Source of the DNA: Gekko japonicus
Lineage: Eukaryota
DNA: 64,000 bases
Assembly (NCBI RefSeq): GCF_001447785.1
Contig: NW_015167588.1
Location: forward strand, 131,884 to 195,883
Direction: 5' to 3'
Shown one piece after another: positions 48,001-54,000 of the stretch. The position numbers are program-made. Position 1 is the stretch's first letter, and the number at the start of each line of letters is the position of its first letter.

Positions 48001-51000
48001 ACCTCTCTTCTGACCTCTTGTTTTCAACATATGAATGTTTTAGAAGGGCATTTTCATGCTTTGATTTTAAAATATCAAGAGAGTCTTATTCACAATTCAT
48101 TTACTATATTAAAGCCTTTCTTGTTGAGACTCAATGTAGAAAAATGGCACGGGACAAGAGTAGGATTACAAAATTAGAAACAATACAAAAAAAGTATCAG
48201 AAATGACATATCATAACCAATATAGTAAGATATGCGTGCAATATACAGTGGAATAGACTGTTCCCTTTATAAAAGCACCCTCCTGAACCATTCCATTATA
48301 CTACAGCCTTTATTCGTTTTGTAAAAATGCCCTTCTGAACAACTTTGTTTTACACATTTTTGCAGAATAATAGAAGGCAGGTTTTCCTGACATCCTCAGA
48401 CAAACCGTTCCACAAGGGGGAGCCACAACAGGGAATGTGCATGTATGGGCAGCTTTCAGTCTTACACATTTGTAGGGTGGCACCTTCAGTTGAGCAAAAC
48501 CGTCACAAAGGAGCATAGCAGGAGAGCCTGTCCTGCAGATATGAGGGTCCAAAACCGTGAAGGGCTTTGTGAGTGAGAACTAGTACCTTGAATTGAATCC
48601 AGAAGCTGCTATGTCATTGTTGGGAGAGGCTGCAGAATGGGAGTAACATGCATACTCTGCCTAGCTTCTGATTTTGGCTAGAATTTTAATTTTTCCTTTG
48701 TATCTTTTGGTATTGTACAGATAAGGAAGGTGATTTCAGAGGGTACCAGAAGTTTAGTCCAGGAGGGGCTCAAAAGTGGCTTTCTCCAGGCCAGTTCTAC
48801 AAAACCAATCTATTCCAGGACTCTTGATACGAGACACAGTGATTTCAGCTTGGCTGAATTATGTGAGATGGCAAAACAGTATGTGTTTGTGAATGAAACA
48901 GAACAAAGAGCTGTATGCAAGATAAATGAAGATGCCTCTGTGCCAGAACAGATTCAGCTTTCCTGTGTTACAGAAAACGTCTCAAATGATACAAAGTTAA
49001 TAACATTAATGGGACATAAATATTTATTTCCACCCAAAAGCAGTTTTCTTTTATCTGATATTTCTTGTATGCAGCCACTTTTGAATTGTAAGTACATTTC
49101 CTACTAAAAGTATGTTTTTCTGTGATCCATCAATATCGATGGACTTTTAGCATCAGTGTTTGGTTTGTTATTAACTAATTTTTATATTGACTCCTATGAG
49201 TGGGTTCTTGTTCTTCTCCAAGCATATACACTCTTCACTATGTTTCCTGTTACATCTTTGAAAAATATACTAATGTTAGATTAATACATGAGAACACGGT
49301 TAGTTCACTAATAATTGAGAAGGGTTTGATGATACCTTTGAAACTGGCATCTGGCCTGTTTGTTTGGATGAATATGAAACAGAGCCAAAAGTTTCAAAAG
49401 TATATATTTTATCTTTATGTTTGGGTAAAGTTGTCAACGTGAACTTACTAGAGCAGCAAAAATAAATCTTTAATTGTTGCTTTTAAAAGGAGGAATAATA
49501 CTATGTGTCAGGGTGTCTGAAAGCATGAAAGTCAGATGTTTACATTTCAAGAGCCAGTTGTATGTCTTATTTGAAAAAACAAACGGTTTTTTTTCTTAAC
49601 TTTTTAGATAATAAAAAATTTGATGTAATTGTGATAGATCCACCATGGGAGAACAAGTCTGTTAAAAGAAGTAATCGGTATGTTTACACATTTTAAAACT
49701 TATGTTTTCATTTTAAATACTGCCTCCTCTCTCCCCTCTTCTTTATTAATGCTATAGCTTTGTCTTAGTTTCATGGAGGTTGACAGCTAGTGGTTGCACC
49801 AGTGCAGTGAAGAGTTGTAGCTGTATATACCAGTGTATTTGCACCAATCACAGAGTCTGTTGCACAGGCTTTGGGACGACTGTCAGGCATCTTGGTGTTG
49901 TTTTCCCCTCCATGTTTCTTTTCTGATTGGAATTCTAAATGCTCCGATGATGAGCATTCTGTTAGGCACAACTGATGCATTAAAATGCATTGCCACAATT
50001 TTGTGTTGGCAAAACTTCACTTGCATAGAATTGCTTTCAGATTTCATATTAAAATTTTATAATGCAGTGGGGAATCTGGTCTTACAGCTTTCCAAGGCAA
50101 AGTATTATAGGTACAGTGGGACTTGGGGAGGGGTAGATGTGGGAGACTGCAGCATGCTTTTTAAGCAGTGGGCTGTGTTGAGGCTGGTTATGGCACTGAA
50201 ATAAATGGCCACTTCATAAATCAGAATATTAATTTATGGACAGTCTGATTCTCAAAGTGCTCTGCTGCTTCAGGGTTAATCAAACTAAAAAGAGGTCTGT
50301 GCCTGTGGAGAGCATTGATAATTTAAAGCTGCTCAGGTAGGCTCCTAATTAATTTTCATTTAAAAGATGTCAGGCAGGAAAAGCTAGTCCCTGAGTAAGG
50401 CGTGTACAGGGCTATTTTTGGGCAAGAACGCACAGGAACACAGTTCCGGCTGGCTCCCAAGTTGGCCACACCCAGCAGGAACTCATTAACATAACAGGCC
50501 ACACCCAACAGCAGAAACTCATTAGGATTGGCTACACTGGGGTATCTGGCCTAACATGCAAAGGGTTCCTGCTACAAACAAAGTTTTGGGTTTTGACAAC
50601 AAGGTAAACAAAATAAGAAGCAAAAGGTGGGTGTGGCTGGATGACCACACTTCTGGCAACATGGGGGGTGGCCTAATATGTTAATATGATGTGCTATCGG
50701 GGGTGTGGCCTAATATGCTAATAGGTTTCTGCTGTTGGGTGTGGCCTATTATGCTAATGAGTTCCTGCTGGGCTTTTTCTTCAAAAAAAGCCCTGGGCGT
50801 GTACATTCCTTTCCAGTAAGGGATGTGTTGAAACAAGTTGAAGCAGCCTCACTCCAACATCTAGTGATGAGTGTCGGTTGCATCCACAGAAGAGGGAGAA
50901 GGGGGCTCTTTTACTTATTTCTCCCTCATTGTGGTGGCTCCCCATTCCATGGTGTGTTTTGTTAACAAGACTTTCTTTATTTCTTCTTTTGCACCTATTT

Positions 51001-54000
51001 CCAGTTTCTCTGATAGTAATGCTACTATCTCTTCTTTTAGATCATTTCCTTTTCTTTCCGGTATATTTTGGCATCGTACTATCATGGACGCCTTCTCGAT
51101 TTCCAACGTTATTAAAGATTGTTCTAATCTTTCAACATCTGCTTTATGTTCTAAAAATTCCTCTTTTAATTCCTTGTTTCCTTTTTCCAGTTTCCTTATA
51201 CTTTTAGTATTTTTGTCAATTTCTTGCTTGTAACTATCTAGTTTACTTTTTACTCCTTCTGTCTCTTTAAATATTGCATCCATTTTTGCTTGCATTGGTT
51301 TCAGTTCAGCTTTCATCACCATTGGCAACATTTGCTCCATTGTTTCCTTCACAGCAGTAGTTACTGCTTACTTAACCGAGATTTGTACTGTCTCTTATAC
51401 CATGTTTTGAATCCAATCTTTTAGATCTGTTTTGAGGTCGTCTATTGTTGTCGTTACTTTAGGATTCAATGTTTGCTGTATAGTTGTTTGGATTTTTGGT
51501 GAGGGGACCGAGCTTTTTCTGGGTGGTAGACCTGAAGCCATCTCGCATTTATCTATTTTGTAGTGTTTAATATTTCTAATTTTAATTTGTAAATTAATAC
51601 GTTTTGTTAAGTGCAGTTTTTGAAATTTGTTCATCTACTATCAGTTAAGGGCTTGGGTTGTATCTTTATGTATTTTGTTTACTTCTCCTATTTTCTGTTC
51701 TTTGTACTCCTCCCTCGTTATTATTATTTTGTATTTTGTTTACTTCTCCTATTCTCTATTTTTTTTTAAATTTATACTTTCCCCTTCTGAACTATTCTGT
51801 TCAATCTGCCGGGCTGCTCTTATTTCTAACTATTCTAATCCCTCTTCCTTAACTAAACTTTTTTCACTCTTTATCCTGCTCAATAGCAATAGCAATGGCA
51901 AAAACAAACTCAATGGCAATAACAAAACAATAACAAATCATCCAGCGTTTAATCGTCCAATTAGTTCTGTCAGGTTGCCGGTGCTCCTCTTCCGTCTACT
52001 GTCTCTCAGACTGCTGACACTCGTTCCTCTCCAGTCTATGCCTGCTCGCCCTTTAATCTTCTGTGTCTCTCCGTCCTGCAGCCTCTTTTATCCTCCGACA
52101 CTCCGTCGCTGGGTTCATACAACCAGATCAATCAGAAAGGGAGAAGTTAGCTTAATCTTAAATAAATCTTAGATAAGATTTAATTCGCTATCCTTTCTTT
52201 TTATTATTATTTTATTTGTAGTTCACGTCCCTCCCCCTCTTCTTCCCGTTTCCCCTTTCTTCCTGCTTCTATCCTACCGTTATGCCCCTTTCGCACGCTT
52301 GCGTTCTTATCCGCTTATCAGCCTTGTCAACCTTCCTGTTATTTTAGTCTAGAGAAAAAAATCACACGTTTAACTGTCTCCTTCTCTCCCGTCCTTTTCT
52401 CTCCCATAGTGAGAATCCCCTGTCACTTATCTTCTAGTTATTTTCCGGCGTTTGTTTCTGGCCGTGTTGAGTTTTCTGTTACTCTGCCCCCGGCTCGCCC
52501 GTCGCTGTGTCTCTTCTGTTTACTTCCGTCCGTCTGCTCTCCCCGTCACTTCCGCTCCGTCTCCGCGTCCCAGCGCTCCTTGGCCAGCCGCGCCCAGTTT
52601 ACTCTCCTGAAGACCTCTCGCTGCTCGTCTCCTGCTCTCCTGCCGTCCTCCTCTACTTGTTCTCCGAGACCTGAATTCCAGCTATATCAAACAACAAACA
52701 GCAAACCGCATTAGCTAAGTTCCAAACGTTCCACTATATTTTCTCTTGTTTACCCCCCTTCCCTTTTTTTTTCTCTTCCCGAGTGCTTTATTTTTTTTCC
52801 GAGTAACCGCTTATTCCCAAGGAAGGGGCCAAGTTTAACTCACTCTGCCTACCCTTCTATCTCCCCCTTGCCAAAGTTTCCTAGGTTTATAGAACTGAAA
52901 ATAGCACTTATCTGCGGTTGTTCTTGTTGGGTTTCTTTGCTAGCCGATGTTCCTGGTTAGCGTTGGCCGCAACGCTCGTCTTTCTCCCCGTCGTTTCCTT
53001 CGGGTTCCCCACTGGGCTCCTCTGCTTCGGTGCCACTCCAATTTTTCCACACCTGTTCGCCTCACAGCTATGGTTGAAGAAGCCCCCTGCTTCCCTCCTA
53101 TTCAGGAAAAGTCTCAGAGAATCTTTGTCCCCCTCTTCAAGAGAGAACAGCCCTGGTTCAGTAGTTTGTGACGGAGCAACTCCACACCCAACTACTCTCG
53201 ACGAGCTCCGGCGGCCATTTTTGTGTTGAAACAAGTTGAAGCAGCCTCACTCCAACATCTAGTGATGAGTGTCGGTTGCATCCACAGAAGAGGGAGAAAG
53301 GGGCTCTTTTACTTATTTCTCCCTCATTGTGGTGGCTCCCCATTCCATGGTGTGTTTTGTTAACAAGACTGATTGTCTAAGCAGATTTCTATGACAAAAC
53401 AGTTTGGGGAAGGTGGGGAAAGACTTGTTCCACTAACTCATTCCTCAGGCTTCCCCAGTCAGGAGTTATATTTTTAAAAAACTATCTGTGTAATCTGTTG
53501 TAAATGTGTATTACTGCTATTTTAATCACTTGTTGAATGGCTGTCTTCTGGCACCTATTAACGTTCACATCTGTCATTTTATTTCTGTCCTTTGGAAGGA
53601 GCGTTTCCATCAGTATTTACAAAACGTGTTTTGCAACATTTTGTGCATAAAATGGACAATCTCAGTTGCGTTGCACACTGACAGTTACCAAGGAGGAGAG
53701 AGAGAGAGAGTGTGTACGTGTCTGCATTTTGCCCCCCTTTTGACTCTGTTCTTTCCAGGCTCATGAAGAATGGTGCTGGCTTCTCTCTCTCAGCATGATG
53801 GCAGCACTGGCTGGGAAGAAAAGCTGCAGCATGTAGAAGGAGGGGGAAGGCTCACCTTCTGGCTCTCTTGCCCTGCTGTCTCTGTCACTAGGAAGTAAAA
53901 TAAGGGGCGCAGCTGGCTTTCCAAACGTAGCCTTGCCCTTCATCCACGAGCTGTCAGTGGGAAGTGCTTAAAGTTAACCTTTCCCACTCTTTCGACATAA

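What the first reader, a model, noticed from the sequence alone, without database searches (positions are those of the whole stretch)
50824..53370. L1 5' end without its 3' half, bracketed by 149-bp direct repeats
Seen: 50824-50972 and 53222-53370 are 149-bp direct repeats with one mismatch. Between them is a minus-strand element with ~1.7 kb of UTR-like sequence and ~190 codons of a coiled-coil ORF1-like frame that stops at the repeat, with no ORF2 and no poly(A). An AATAAA lies a few nt before the 3' junction. Established: L1 target-primed reverse transcription normally gives 5'-truncated, poly(A)-tailed copies with short TSDs, the opposite of this. Inference: non-canonical insertion, for example internal priming at a widely staggered break, RNA-templated break repair, or trans-mobilisation by another LINE clade such as RTE, which can make long duplications.
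Basis: partly seen in the sequence, partly recalled or inferred. Interest (0 to 1): 0.68.

Follow-up and report, generated by a model that had tools for sequence, protein, structure and literature searches.

The report
Tail-less L1 head with 149-bp duplication
A young front portion of an L1 jumping gene sits in a gecko METTL4 intron between two near-identical 149-base copies of the target, a layout normal L1 copying does not give, but one locus cannot settle how it arose.

Summary
50824-50972 and 53222-53370 are 148/149 identical, and both the repeat and the 2249-nt insert between them are unique in the window. The insert (50973-53221, minus strand) is an L1 head. It has a YY1-like box at nt 1-9, a 1680-nt CpG-rich 5'UTR, and about 190 codons of coiled coil plus the start of the RRM. 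A profile that includes this fragment matches human L1 ORF1p at E=2e-10. It has no ORF2 and no poly(A). The host is a gekkonid lizard, and the insert is antisense in a METTL4 intron.

New findings:
- The L1 stops at the end of one of its most A-rich tracts.
- The 3' junction target does not look like an L1 endonuclease site.
- The AATAAA is one of 10 such hexamers and lies too close to the end to matter.
- The left edge of the repeat abuts a palindromic MITE-like element.

My best reading (about 0.45) is one-step, lesion-primed reverse transcription from an internal A-rich tract, with a 149-nt stagger. The rivals are a conventional insertion later remodelled by aborted homologous repair (0.2) and an assembly chimera of filled and empty alleles (0.15). 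The RTE idea has no support. No eukaryotic genome DNA was available, so empty site and copy number stay untested.

The parts
50824..50972 (.). Left copy (R1) of the 149-nt direct repeat; duplicated target sequence
   Evidence: 148/149 identical to 53222-53370; only two copies in the window; mismatch at 50901.
53222..53370 (.). Right copy (R2) of the 149-nt direct repeat
   Evidence: mismatch at 53299.
50973..53221 (-). L1 fragment, 2249 nt: 5' end, 5'UTR and N-terminal part of ORF1. No ORF2, no 3'UTR, no poly(A)
   Evidence: Single copy in the window. The sense strand is purine-rich. CpG o/e is 0.39-1.12 per 250 nt, against 0.19-0.24 in the flanks. No Pfam RT or EN domain.
53213..53221 (-). 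YY1-like box (matches AARATGGCS) forming the first 9 nt of the insert
   Evidence: the only match in 64 kb on either strand. (PMC5381506, passages): CAAGATGGC (YY1 site) near the start of mammalian L1, and ATGGCG about 20 nt into Anolis clade-1 L1.
51542..53221 (-). Long 5'UTR: 1680 nt, 44.2% GC, 66 CpG
   Evidence: Anolis clade-1 L1 5'UTRs for comparison: 1.3 kb on average, 45.2% GC, about 56 CpG (passages of PMC5381506).
50973..51541 (-). ORF1 part: 189.7 codons covering coiled coil and about the first 35 residues of the RRM. Two in-frame TAA stops at 51395-51397 and 51368-51370
   Evidence: Homology to Gekko japonicus ORF1-like proteins runs up to the last codons before the junction (P0002 residue 119 of 308).
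50973..50990 (-). Terminal A-rich tract (14 A in 18 nt), containing AATAAA at 50976-50981; proposed internal priming site
   Evidence: 0.4% of 18-nt windows of the insert are at least as A-rich (1.8-3.3% for 10-15 nt, 8.4% for 25 nt); 10 poly(A)-signal hexamers in the insert.
50388..50823 (.). Palindromic, MITE-like inverted-repeat element directly left of R1; possible source of the break at 50823|50824
   Evidence: Inner arms are 58 nt and 91% complementary. Outer arms score 35 against a shuffle mean of 19.2 (sd 3.7), reached by 1 of 500 shuffles. Hairpin dG is -97.8 kcal/mol, z -8.2. The similarity is robust to about 50811 and weak from there to 50823.
54735..55010 (+). ORF holding a METTL4 (MT-A70) exon; shows that the insert is intronic and antisense to the gene
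   Evidence: Pfam MT-A70 E=1e-9. Best matches are gecko METTL4: Gekko japonicus 97%, other geckos 89-93%, anoles 80-84%.

Best explanation
This is a single non-canonical L1 retrotransposition event in the gecko germ line.

Proposed steps, all inferred:
1. A 3'-OH on the + strand at 50972 served as primer. It was not made at a typical L1 endonuclease site, so it was probably a pre-existing nick or break end.
2. An L1-type reverse transcriptase started on an L1 RNA at an internal A-rich tract of ORF1, used as a stand-in for the poly(A) tail.
3. It copied 2249 nt to, or within about 20 nt of, the capped 5' end.
4. The other strand was broken 149 nt away, at 50823|50824, at the foot of a palindromic MITE-like element. 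Its 3' end primed second-strand synthesis.
5. Fill-in of the two 149-nt 3' overhangs produced the long target-site duplication.

Shown directly: the anatomy, the L1 identity of the insert, the A-rich end, the target at the 3' junction that is unlike an endonuclease site, and the youth of the copy. Not shown: the order of events, the enzyme, and the origin of the two breaks.
For: - The repeat is exact flanking target. It is 148/149 identical, and both junctions are sharp with no shared bases beyond the repeat.
- The insert starts at a YY1-like box, the only match to AARATGGCS in 64 kb. This fits run-off at, or about 10-20 nt short of, an L1 RNA 5' end (PMC5381506 passages). It points to an RNA or cDNA template rather than a random DNA piece.
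- The L1 ends exactly after an 18-nt tract with 14 A. That is the top 0.4% of 18-nt windows and the top 1.8-3.3% for 10-15 nt. An RT that prefers poly(A) predicts this; a random break or contig end does not.
- The first-strand nick site GACT/GATT matches 2 of 6 positions of TTTT/AA, the commonest score in the window background. So the L1 endonuclease probably did not make it.
- It is young. Repeat divergence is 0.67% (95% CI 0.017-3.7%), and the insert's CpG o/e is 0.39-1.12 against 0.19-0.24 in the flanks.
- The left break lies 0-13 nt outside a strong palindrome, a plausible break-prone site.
- 3'-truncated, tail-less L1 insertions at sites unlike the endonuclease consensus are documented in humans (PMC1920257, passages). 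TSDs over 20 bp are a recognised minor class (PMC4245944 and PMC2912911, passages).
Against: - In human data, full-length L1 inserts have tight 10-20-bp TSDs. All 6 full-length inserts in the HeLa assay had 10-17 bp. 64 of 66 full-length elements had 10-20 bp. Extremely long TSDs went with 5'-truncated inserts.
- Human endonuclease-independent insertions lack TSDs by definition. 18 of the 21 had target-site deletions, and 18 of 21 were 5'-truncated by 3 kb or more.
- The primer end is not T-rich (last four bases GACT), so annealing to an A-rich tract is not evident.
- I chose the A-richness window length and the YY1-like pattern after seeing the sequence.
- The L1 sequence downstream of the truncation point is unknown, so microhomology cannot be scored.
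- 149 is one less than a common short-read length, which keeps an assembly artefact alive.
- The adjacency to the palindrome would arise by chance in roughly 5-10% of cases (my estimate).
Confidence: 0.45

Rival explanations
1. Two-step origin. A conventional full-length L1 inserted at 50823|50824 with a short TSD made from the first 6-17 nt of the repeat. Later a double-strand break inside the hemizygous L1 was repaired by homologous invasion from the left flank. The template was the empty homologue or sister, or the right-hand TSD copy. About 149 nt were copied past the insertion point. Synthesis then aborted and the end was joined to the broken ORF1. About 4 kb of L1 3' sequence and the tail were lost, and the flank was duplicated.
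For: - On the + strand, candidate first-nick sites 6-8 and 17 nt into the repeat score 4 of 6 against TTTT/AA. Only 7.2% of window positions score that high, and these distances are typical TSD lengths.
- Full-length L1s normally carry 10-20-bp TSDs.
- The 3' junction, which is unlike an endonuclease site, and the missing tail follow automatically.
- The single mismatch could be an allelic SNP.
- Aborted HR followed by end joining is an established outcome of gap repair in Drosophila (PMC3330096, passages).
Against: - 4 of the 22 positions examined reach 4/6, so finding such a site is expected by chance.
- The model does not predict that the break in ORF1 sits at the end of one of the most A-rich tracts.
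- It needs two rare events on a copy whose flanking repeats differ by only 0.67%.
- No remnant of the L1 3' end or of a T-run lies at the left flank.
Confidence: 0.2
2. Assembly chimera. The sequenced animal is heterozygous for an ordinary L1 insertion at 50823|50824. The assembler ran from the left flank into the empty allele for 149 nt and was then joined to a contig of the filled allele that had broken inside ORF1.
For: - 149 is one less than the common 150-nt read length (my observation, not a test).
- The one mismatch could be heterozygosity.
- Young L1 copies are hard to assemble, and low-complexity A-rich tracts are places where contigs end.
- LINE insertion polymorphism is abundant in Anolis (PMC5389967, title and abstract start only).
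Against: - The 64-kb window has no N.
- It carries other repeats resolved without gaps, including a 116-nt tandem array at 96-98% identity. This suggests long-read or otherwise high-contiguity assembly.
- No other suspicious near-identical local duplication was found in the window.
- A gap closer would be expected to keep extending into unique sequence rather than stop at 149 nt (inference).
Confidence: 0.15
3. The 149-mer is a terminal repeat of a composite, LTR-like (TRIM/LARD-type) element that has captured L1 sequence, not a target duplication.
For: In the minus orientation a TGG lies 4 nt after the upstream repeat, and a polypurine run directly precedes the downstream repeat. This layout mimics a PBS and a PPT.
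Against: - In that orientation the repeat starts AG and ends CA, not TG...CA.
- There is no 4-6-bp duplication outside the repeats.
- The polypurine run is coding sequence that aligns with Gekko ORF1p up to the junction.
- ARAGORN finds no tRNA gene in the region; this does not test for a tRNA primer-binding site.
- There is no further copy of the repeat in 64 kb.
Confidence: 0.04
4. Trans-mobilisation of an L1 5' transcript by another LINE clade such as RTE/Bov-B, CR1 or L2.
For: Squamates carry active Bov-B and other LINE clades (PMC13295347 and PMC5381506, passages). These clades do not need poly(A).
Against: - Such stringent LINEs recognise their own 3' end (PMC4245944, passage).
- The insert ends in ORF1 coding sequence, not in a (CAA)n or (GCA)n type tail. 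The target lacks the T-stretch and the T before the first A of the Bov-B 'Tn-TA' signature (one search compared).
- RTE TSDs peak at 10-12 bp.
- The only other LINE RT seen in the window is L1-clade.
Confidence: 0.03
5. Premature polyadenylation at the AATAAA gave a short L1 mRNA that was inserted by normal TPRT.
For: An AATAAA lies at 50981-50976. Lizard L1 ORFs hold many such signals, 25 on average (PMC5381506, passage).
Against: - The element ends 3 nt after the hexamer. Cleavage normally lies 10-30 nt downstream (established knowledge).
- There is no A-tail.
- The hexamer is one of 10 in the insert.
- The target site is unlike an endonuclease site.
Confidence: 0.02

Closest known systems
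Endonuclease-independent / non-classical L1 insertions (NCLI; Sen et al. 2007, PMC1920257)
   Same: 3'-truncated L1, no poly(A), and a target site unlike the L1 endonuclease consensus; read as L1 RNA captured at a DNA lesion.
   Different: NCLI loci were defined by absence of TSDs. 18 of 21 had target-site deletions and 18 of 21 were 5'-truncated by 3 kb or more. This copy has a 149-bp duplication and an essentially complete 5' end. That survey discarded every 3'-truncated L1 with a TSD of any length, so it could not have found this class.
Long-TSD L1 insertions (L-TSD, over 20 bp) and L1-mediated duplications
   Same: The second-strand break lies far downstream of the first nick, giving a long direct duplication (PMC4245944 and PMC2912911 passages; cancer and cell-model papers seen as search listings only).
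   Different: The passages do not say that those inserts lack a 3' end or tail. In the HeLa data, extremely long TSDs went with 5'-truncated inserts, not 5'-complete ones.
Lizard clade-1 L1 (Anolis; Boissinot and Sookdeo 2016, PMC5381506)
   Same: A long 5'UTR of about 45% GC with tens of CpGs, an ATGGC(G/C) motif near the 5' terminus, an A-rich sense strand, and an ORF1 with coiled coil and RRM.
   Different: Those elements are 5.4-6.4 kb, with ORF2, AATAAA and a poly(A) tail. This copy stops 57% of the way into a roughly 330-codon ORF1. Its nearest protein relatives are gecko and snake sequences at only 21-38% identity.
HAL1 (half-L1) non-autonomous elements
   Different: HAL1 keeps a complete ORF1 and its own 3' end with a tail, and it is a multicopy family. 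Here ORF1 is cut inside the RRM, there is no tail, and copy number could not be tested.
Aborted homologous (gap) repair followed by end joining (Drosophila P{wa} assay, PMC3330096)
   Same: Repair synthesis from an intact template stops early and the end is joined elsewhere, leaving partial copies.
   Different: It is described for transposase-made gaps repaired from the sister chromatid. Its application to a hemizygous L1 in a lizard is my inference.

Membership tests
L1 (LINE-1) clade element | ORF1p of the coiled-coil / RRM / CTD type (Pfam Transposase_22) | tested here: met
   Met only by transitive and profile evidence, and only for the part present.
- The fragment alone gives sub-threshold coiled-coil matches in Pfam.
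- phmmer over 1.84 billion representatives gives 2 hits (E 6.9e-7 and 8.4e-7), both Gekko japonicus.
- One of them, P0002, hits human L1 ORF1p 2ykp at 3.4e-8.
- A 5-sequence profile that includes the fragment hits 2ykp at 2e-10 and mouse 2ldy at 2.4e-9.
- Transposase_22 in the relatives stays below the curated cut-off: 16.8-19.4 bits against 22.4 in 3 of 4, and no hit in P0001.
- The CTD is absent because of the truncation.
L1 (LINE-1) clade element | ORF2 with APE-type endonuclease and reverse transcriptase | tested here: not met
   No Pfam family at E<=0.001 in 16 of 16 other ORFs of 62 aa or more in or overlapping the insert. The insert is only 2249 nt. This copy is a fragment, not a complete element.
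L1 (LINE-1) clade element | 3' end with AATAAA followed by a poly(A) tail | tested here: not met
   The copy ends 3 nt after an internal AATAAA, in an interrupted A-rich coding tract, with no homopolymer tail.
L1 (LINE-1) clade element | Short TSD (under 10 to 20 bp) at a TTTT/AA-like site | tested here: not met
   The TSD is 149 bp. The nick site GACT/GATT matches 2 of 6 positions.
L1 (LINE-1) clade element | 5'UTR with an internal promoter; conserved 5' terminus with a YY1-type ATGGC motif | tested here: inconclusive
   The motif forms nt 1-9 of the insert and is unique in the window. UTR length, GC content and CpG count match Anolis clade-1 values. The true family terminus is unknown because no other copy was available.
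Endonuclease-independent L1 insertion (NCLI, four criteria of PMC1920257) | 3' truncation | tested here: met
   The L1 ends inside the ORF1 RRM.
Endonuclease-independent L1 insertion (NCLI, four criteria of PMC1920257) | Absence of a poly(A) tail | tested here: met
Endonuclease-independent L1 insertion (NCLI, four criteria of PMC1920257) | Significant divergence from the L1 endonuclease consensus at the target | tested here: met
   2 of 6 matches, the commonest background score. The gecko L1 endonuclease preference itself is unknown.
Endonuclease-independent L1 insertion (NCLI, four criteria of PMC1920257) | Absence of TSDs | tested here: not met
   A 149-bp duplication is present. So it works like an NCLI event at the 3' junction but is not a member by that definition.
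LTR / TRIM-type retrotransposon | Terminal repeats ending TG...CA, flanked by a 4-6-bp TSD | tested here: not met
   The repeat reads TG...CT on the + strand and AG...CA on the - strand. The outside flanks share no short duplication.
LTR / TRIM-type retrotransposon | Multicopy terminal repeat in the genome | not testable with these tools
   Only two copies in the 64-kb window. No eukaryotic genome DNA collection was available.
RTE/Bov-B-mobilised retrocopy | RTE-type 3' microsatellite tail and Tn-TA target signature, TSD of about 10-12 bp | tested here: not met
   The signature is taken from PMC13295347 and PMC4245944. Here the TSD starts with A but is preceded by C. There is no T-run about 10 nt upstream, no (CAA)n or (GCA)n tail, and the TSD is 149 bp.
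HAL1 (half-L1) | Complete ORF1 with own 3' end and tail; multicopy family | tested here: not met
   ORF1 is cut at a point aligning to residue 119 of the 308-aa relative P0002, and there is no tail. Copy number is not testable. The definition of HAL1 is recalled, not read here.

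The most novel reading that the evidence does not exclude
Gecko germ lines may produce a distinct class of 'head-complete, tail-less' L1 copies. In this reading, an L1 reverse transcriptase is primed from a non-endonuclease 3'-OH on an internal A-rich tract of the RNA and runs off at the cap. The product is sealed at a second break about one nucleosome or one Okazaki fragment (about 150 nt) away, here at the foot of a palindrome. Published human surveys would have missed such copies by design: one rejected 3'-truncated L1s with any TSD, one collected only 5-30-bp TSDs, and one dropped TSDs over 30 bp and copies lacking 5 bp or more of the 3' end.
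Probability: 0.3. Interest if true: 0.55.

Novelty: new variant of a known kind. Interest (0 to 1): 0.36.

Why it matters
If the one-step reading is right, this locus shows three things. L1 reverse transcription in a reptile germ line can start from a lesion. It can start on an internal A-rich tract. And it can still finish cleanly at the RNA 5' end with a very long target duplication. That links endonuclease-independent insertion with the long-TSD class, and it points to a group of copies that standard TSD and 3'-end filters remove.

In practice it also leaves a promoter-bearing L1 head antisense in a METTL4 intron. If the two-step or artefact reading is right, the locus is an ordinary polymorphic L1 plus a repair or assembly accident, of local interest only.

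Tried and rejected
- Pfam on the ORF1 fragment gave only sub-threshold coiled-coil matches and no L1 domain.
- The word-indexed protein search for longer relatives of the fragment found none among 1061 candidates. The exhaustive representative search was needed instead.
- Rfam at E<=1 on 49500-54700 gave two sub-threshold snoRNA-like matches outside the insert, so no U6 or other RNA chimera was seen. ARAGORN found no tRNA.
- Tandem-repeat and self-similarity scans of the 5'UTR found only a 61-nt two-copy repeat and short arrays, with no mouse-type monomer array.
- The premature-polyadenylation idea was rejected: the hexamer is 3 nt from the end, one of 10, and there is no tail.
- The LTR-like reading was considered because of the TGG after one repeat and the polypurine run before the other. 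It was rejected on the repeat termini, the missing short TSD, and the coding nature of the polypurine run.
- The RTE signature was checked against the published Tn-TA pattern and not found.
- Endonuclease-site scoring could not separate the one-step from the two-step model.
- The MAFFT alignment of the two halves of the palindrome was poor at the outer arms, so I used a local alignment with shuffles.
I ran the comparison in a script with X at the two stops.
- Three paper queries failed on term format and were re-sent in valid form.
- Literature searches, read at listing level plus the passages cited, turned up no description of 5'-complete, 3'-truncated L1 copies with TSDs over 100 bp. This is not an exhaustive search, and paper supplements were closed.
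- Not checked:
  - So the empty site, the copy number of the 149-mer, the family consensus and read support all remain unchecked.
Exon-bearing ORFs were searched singly.

Full report
1. OBSERVATION

50824-50972 and 53222-53370 are 149 nt long and 148/149 identical. The mismatch is G at 50901 against A at 53299. blastn of the 149-mer and of the 2249-nt insert (50973-53221) against the whole window finds only these copies. A window-wide repeat scan lists 12 direct-repeat families of 40 nt or more. This pair is the only one at 99% identity apart from a local 116-nt tandem array. The window has no N. Both edges of the repeat are sharp: the bases outside the two copies differ at once on both sides.

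2. HOST AND CONTEXT

I scanned stop-to-stop ORFs of 62 aa or more against Pfam. There were 295. 150 went into and 128 into. The 17 that lie in or overlap the insert were covered.

- The scan shows NDC80 exons on the minus strand (13.9-31.8 kb).
- It shows an MT-A70 exon on the plus strand at 54735-55010.
- That exon-bearing ORF, searched on its own, matches METTL4 of Gekko japonicus best (97%). Other geckos follow at 89-93% and anoles at 80-84%.

So the window comes from a gekkonid lizard, not from a human. The insert lies in a METTL4 intron, antisense to the gene.

3. WHAT THE INSERT IS

Read on the minus strand, the insert starts with a 9-nt box that fits AARATGGCS. This is the only match to that pattern in 64 kb on either strand. 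The chance expectation for the whole window is 2.1 matches, so what is informative is the position at nt 1-9, not the presence. I chose the pattern after seeing the sequence.

Boissinot and Sookdeo (PMC5381506, passages read) report two relevant facts:
- Anolis clade-1 L1s begin GACTTCCGGTG-N8-ATGGCG.

By that yardstick the copy is 5'-complete to within about 10-20 nt. This is an inference.

The 5'UTR comes next:
- It is 1680 nt long, 44.2% GC, with 66 CpG.
- The Anolis clade-1 values are 1.3 kb, 45.2% GC and about 56 CpG.
- CpG o/e in the insert is 0.39-1.12 per 250 nt, against 0.19-0.24 in the flanks. The sequence has therefore spent little time decaying in place.

From the ATG at 51541, 189.7 codons follow up to the junction.

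The evidence for L1 identity of this frame is layered:
- Pfam sees only sub-threshold coiled-coil matches in it.
- An exhaustive phmmer search of 1.84 billion representatives finds two relatives (E 6.9e-7 and 8.4e-7, 36-37% identity). Both are Gekko japonicus predictions misnamed 'apolipoprotein A-IV-like'.
- One of them matches solved human L1 ORF1p (2ykp) at 3.4e-8 and mouse ORF1p (2ldy) at 2e-7.
- A profile of the fragment plus four squamate relatives matches 2ykp at 2e-10.
- Transposase_22 stays under Pfam's cut-off in the relatives. Three of four reach 16.8-19.4 bits against the 22.4 cut-off, and one has no hit.

The homology runs to the last codons before the junction. The truncation point aligns to residue 119 of the 308-aa relative, about 35 residues into the RRM.

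Two in-frame TAA stops (51395-51397 and 51368-51370) lie in a stretch that aligns to residues 2-20 of one Gekko relative (read through with X). The other relative's annotated start lies downstream of them. So I cannot say whether they interrupt the functional ORF1 of this family.

No RT or EN domain occurs in the insert. A separate L1 ORF2 RT fragment sits at the far end of the window (3-638, minus; E=9e-33 to human ORF2p).

4. THE TWO JUNCTIONS

The 3' junction:
- In the sense strand the L1 ends in an 18-nt tract with 14 A, and then the repeat starts.
- Only 0.4% of 18-nt windows in the insert are at least as A-rich. The figure is 1.8-3.3% for 10-15 nt and 8.4% for 25 nt. I chose the window length after the fact, so I read this as roughly a 1-3% coincidence.
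It ends 3 nt before the junction. That is too close for cleavage and polyadenylation, and there is no tail.
- The + strand nick that would have primed first-strand synthesis reads GACT/GATT. That is 2 of 6 matches to TTTT/AA, the commonest score among all window positions. Only 24.9% of positions score 3 or more.

The 5' junction:
- The second break, at 50823|50824, lies 0-13 nt outside a roughly 436-nt palindromic, MITE-like element (50388-50823).
- Its inner arms are 58 nt and 91% complementary.
- Its outer arms score 35 against a shuffle mean of 19.2, reached by 1 of 500 shuffles.
- Its hairpin has dG -97.8 kcal/mol and z -8.2.
- I estimate a 5-10% chance of such adjacency by accident.

5. 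MECHANISM

Any model needs three things:
- an RNA- or cDNA-like template that ends at the L1 5' terminus;
- a start inside ORF1;
- two copies of 149 nt of target.

Model A is one step. A non-endonuclease 3'-OH at 50972 primes an L1-type RT on the internal A-rich tract. Synthesis runs off at the 5' end. A break on the other strand 149 nt away primes the second strand, and fill-in duplicates the 149 nt. Model A is the only model that predicts the A-rich end.

Precedents for each half exist:
- Human non-classical L1 insertions are 3'-truncated, tail-less and at sites unlike the endonuclease consensus (PMC1920257, passages).
- TSDs over 20 bp are a recognised minor class (PMC4245944 and PMC2912911, passages).

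Points against model A:
- Full-length human inserts have tight TSDs: 6 of 6 at 10-17 bp in HeLa cells, and 64 of 66 at 10-20 bp.
- NCLI loci lack TSDs, 18 of 21 had target-site deletions, and 18 of 21 were 5'-truncated by 3 kb or more.
- The primer end is not T-rich.

Model B has two steps. An ordinary full-length insertion occurs at 50823|50824. Candidate nick sites 6-8 and 17 nt into the repeat score 4 of 6. But 4 of the 22 positions examined do so, so this is not discriminating. Later a break in the hemizygous L1 is repaired from the empty homologue or sister. Synthesis aborts after 149 nt and is followed by end joining. This outcome is established for gap repair in Drosophila (PMC3330096, passages).

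Model C is the same geometry produced by an assembler from a heterozygous insertion. That 149 equals 150 minus 1 keeps this model alive. The gap-free 64 kb with resolved repeats argues against it.

Models B and C do not predict the A-rich end.

I put A at 0.45, B at 0.20 and C at 0.15. An LTR-like terminal repeat gets 0.04, RTE or another LINE 0.03, and premature polyadenylation 0.02. The rest is unassigned.

6. COMPARISON WITH KNOWN KINDS, AND NOVELTY

The copy is an L1-clade fragment. At its 3' junction it behaves like an endonuclease-independent insertion, but it fails that class's 'no TSD' criterion. It also fails the ordinary L1 criteria of tail and short TSD. It is not HAL1, because ORF1 is cut and there is no tail (the HAL1 definition is recalled). 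It is not LTR-like and not RTE-mobilised.

Three surveys that I read in passages exclude such copies by design. One rejected 3'-truncated L1s with any TSD. One collected only 5-30-bp TSDs. One dropped TSDs over 30 bp and copies lacking 5 bp or more of the 3' end.

My searches (listings plus the cited passages, with supplements closed) found no description of 5'-complete, tail-less L1 copies with TSDs over 100 bp. That is a weak negative. I rate the locus a new variant of a known kind, resting on a single locus.

7. LIMITS

The following are therefore untested, and they are the decisive tests:
- the empty site;
- the copy number of the 149-mer;
- the family consensus, including the bases beyond the truncation point and the true 5' terminus;
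- read support;
- a genome-wide census.

VERDICT

The mechanism is probably a lesion-primed, internally primed L1 event, but this is not settled. Interest is 0.36.

Noticed in passing
window 50388-50823: A palindromic, MITE-like element of about 436 nt with 36-nt tandem sub-repeats (50663-50770) and 58-nt inner arms at 91% complementarity. It folds as a long hairpin (dG -97.8 kcal/mol, z -8.2). No clear TSD flanks it. Its right end abuts the 149-nt repeat.
   Followed up: partly
window 3-638 (minus): An open 212-aa frame running off the window start is an L1-clade ORF2 reverse transcriptase. It matches human L1 ORF2p residues 417-617 at E=9e-33 (Pfam RVT_1 3.7e-13). It is a second L1 copy, 50 kb from the finding.
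   Followed up: partly
window 13894-31828 (minus) and 54735-55010 (plus): NDC80 exons (NDC80_loop and Ndc80_HEC domains) lie on the minus strand and a METTL4 MT-A70 exon on the plus strand. This is a head-to-head gene pair, with GC-richer sequence at about 36-41 kb between them that could hold a shared promoter.
   Followed up: partly
window 21773-22906 (plus): Fragments of a Ty3/gypsy-type LTR retrotransposon: a Tf2-1-like integrase SH3 domain (E=1.7e-13) and a chromodomain (E=2.1e-5, just under Pfam's cut-off), inside an NDC80 intron.
   Followed up: no
window 58259-58612, with a diverged copy at 30882-31003: A 116-nt unit repeated three times in tandem at 96-98% identity, plus one 65% copy 27 kb away.
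   Followed up: no
window 18044-18345 and 18842-18887 versus 58775-59085 and 59315-59360; also 37385-37576, 54178-54369 and 59086-59277: Dispersed repeats at 89-91% identity in the same order at two places 40.7 kb apart, and a 192-nt family with three copies. These are probably copies of interspersed elements such as SINEs, and they were not classified.
   Followed up: no
proteins P0001 and P0002 (Gekko japonicus): Two public gecko proteins annotated 'apolipoprotein A-IV-like' are L1 ORF1p-type proteins. P0002 matches solved human L1 ORF1p at E=3.4e-8, and a profile containing both matches it at E=2e-10. The database names are misleading.
   Followed up: partly
window 5000-7600: A GC-rich stretch (55-56% GC, against 42% for the whole window) with internal 52-61-nt repeats at 75-84% identity. 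No Pfam domain was found in its ORFs. Its nature is unknown.
   Followed up: no
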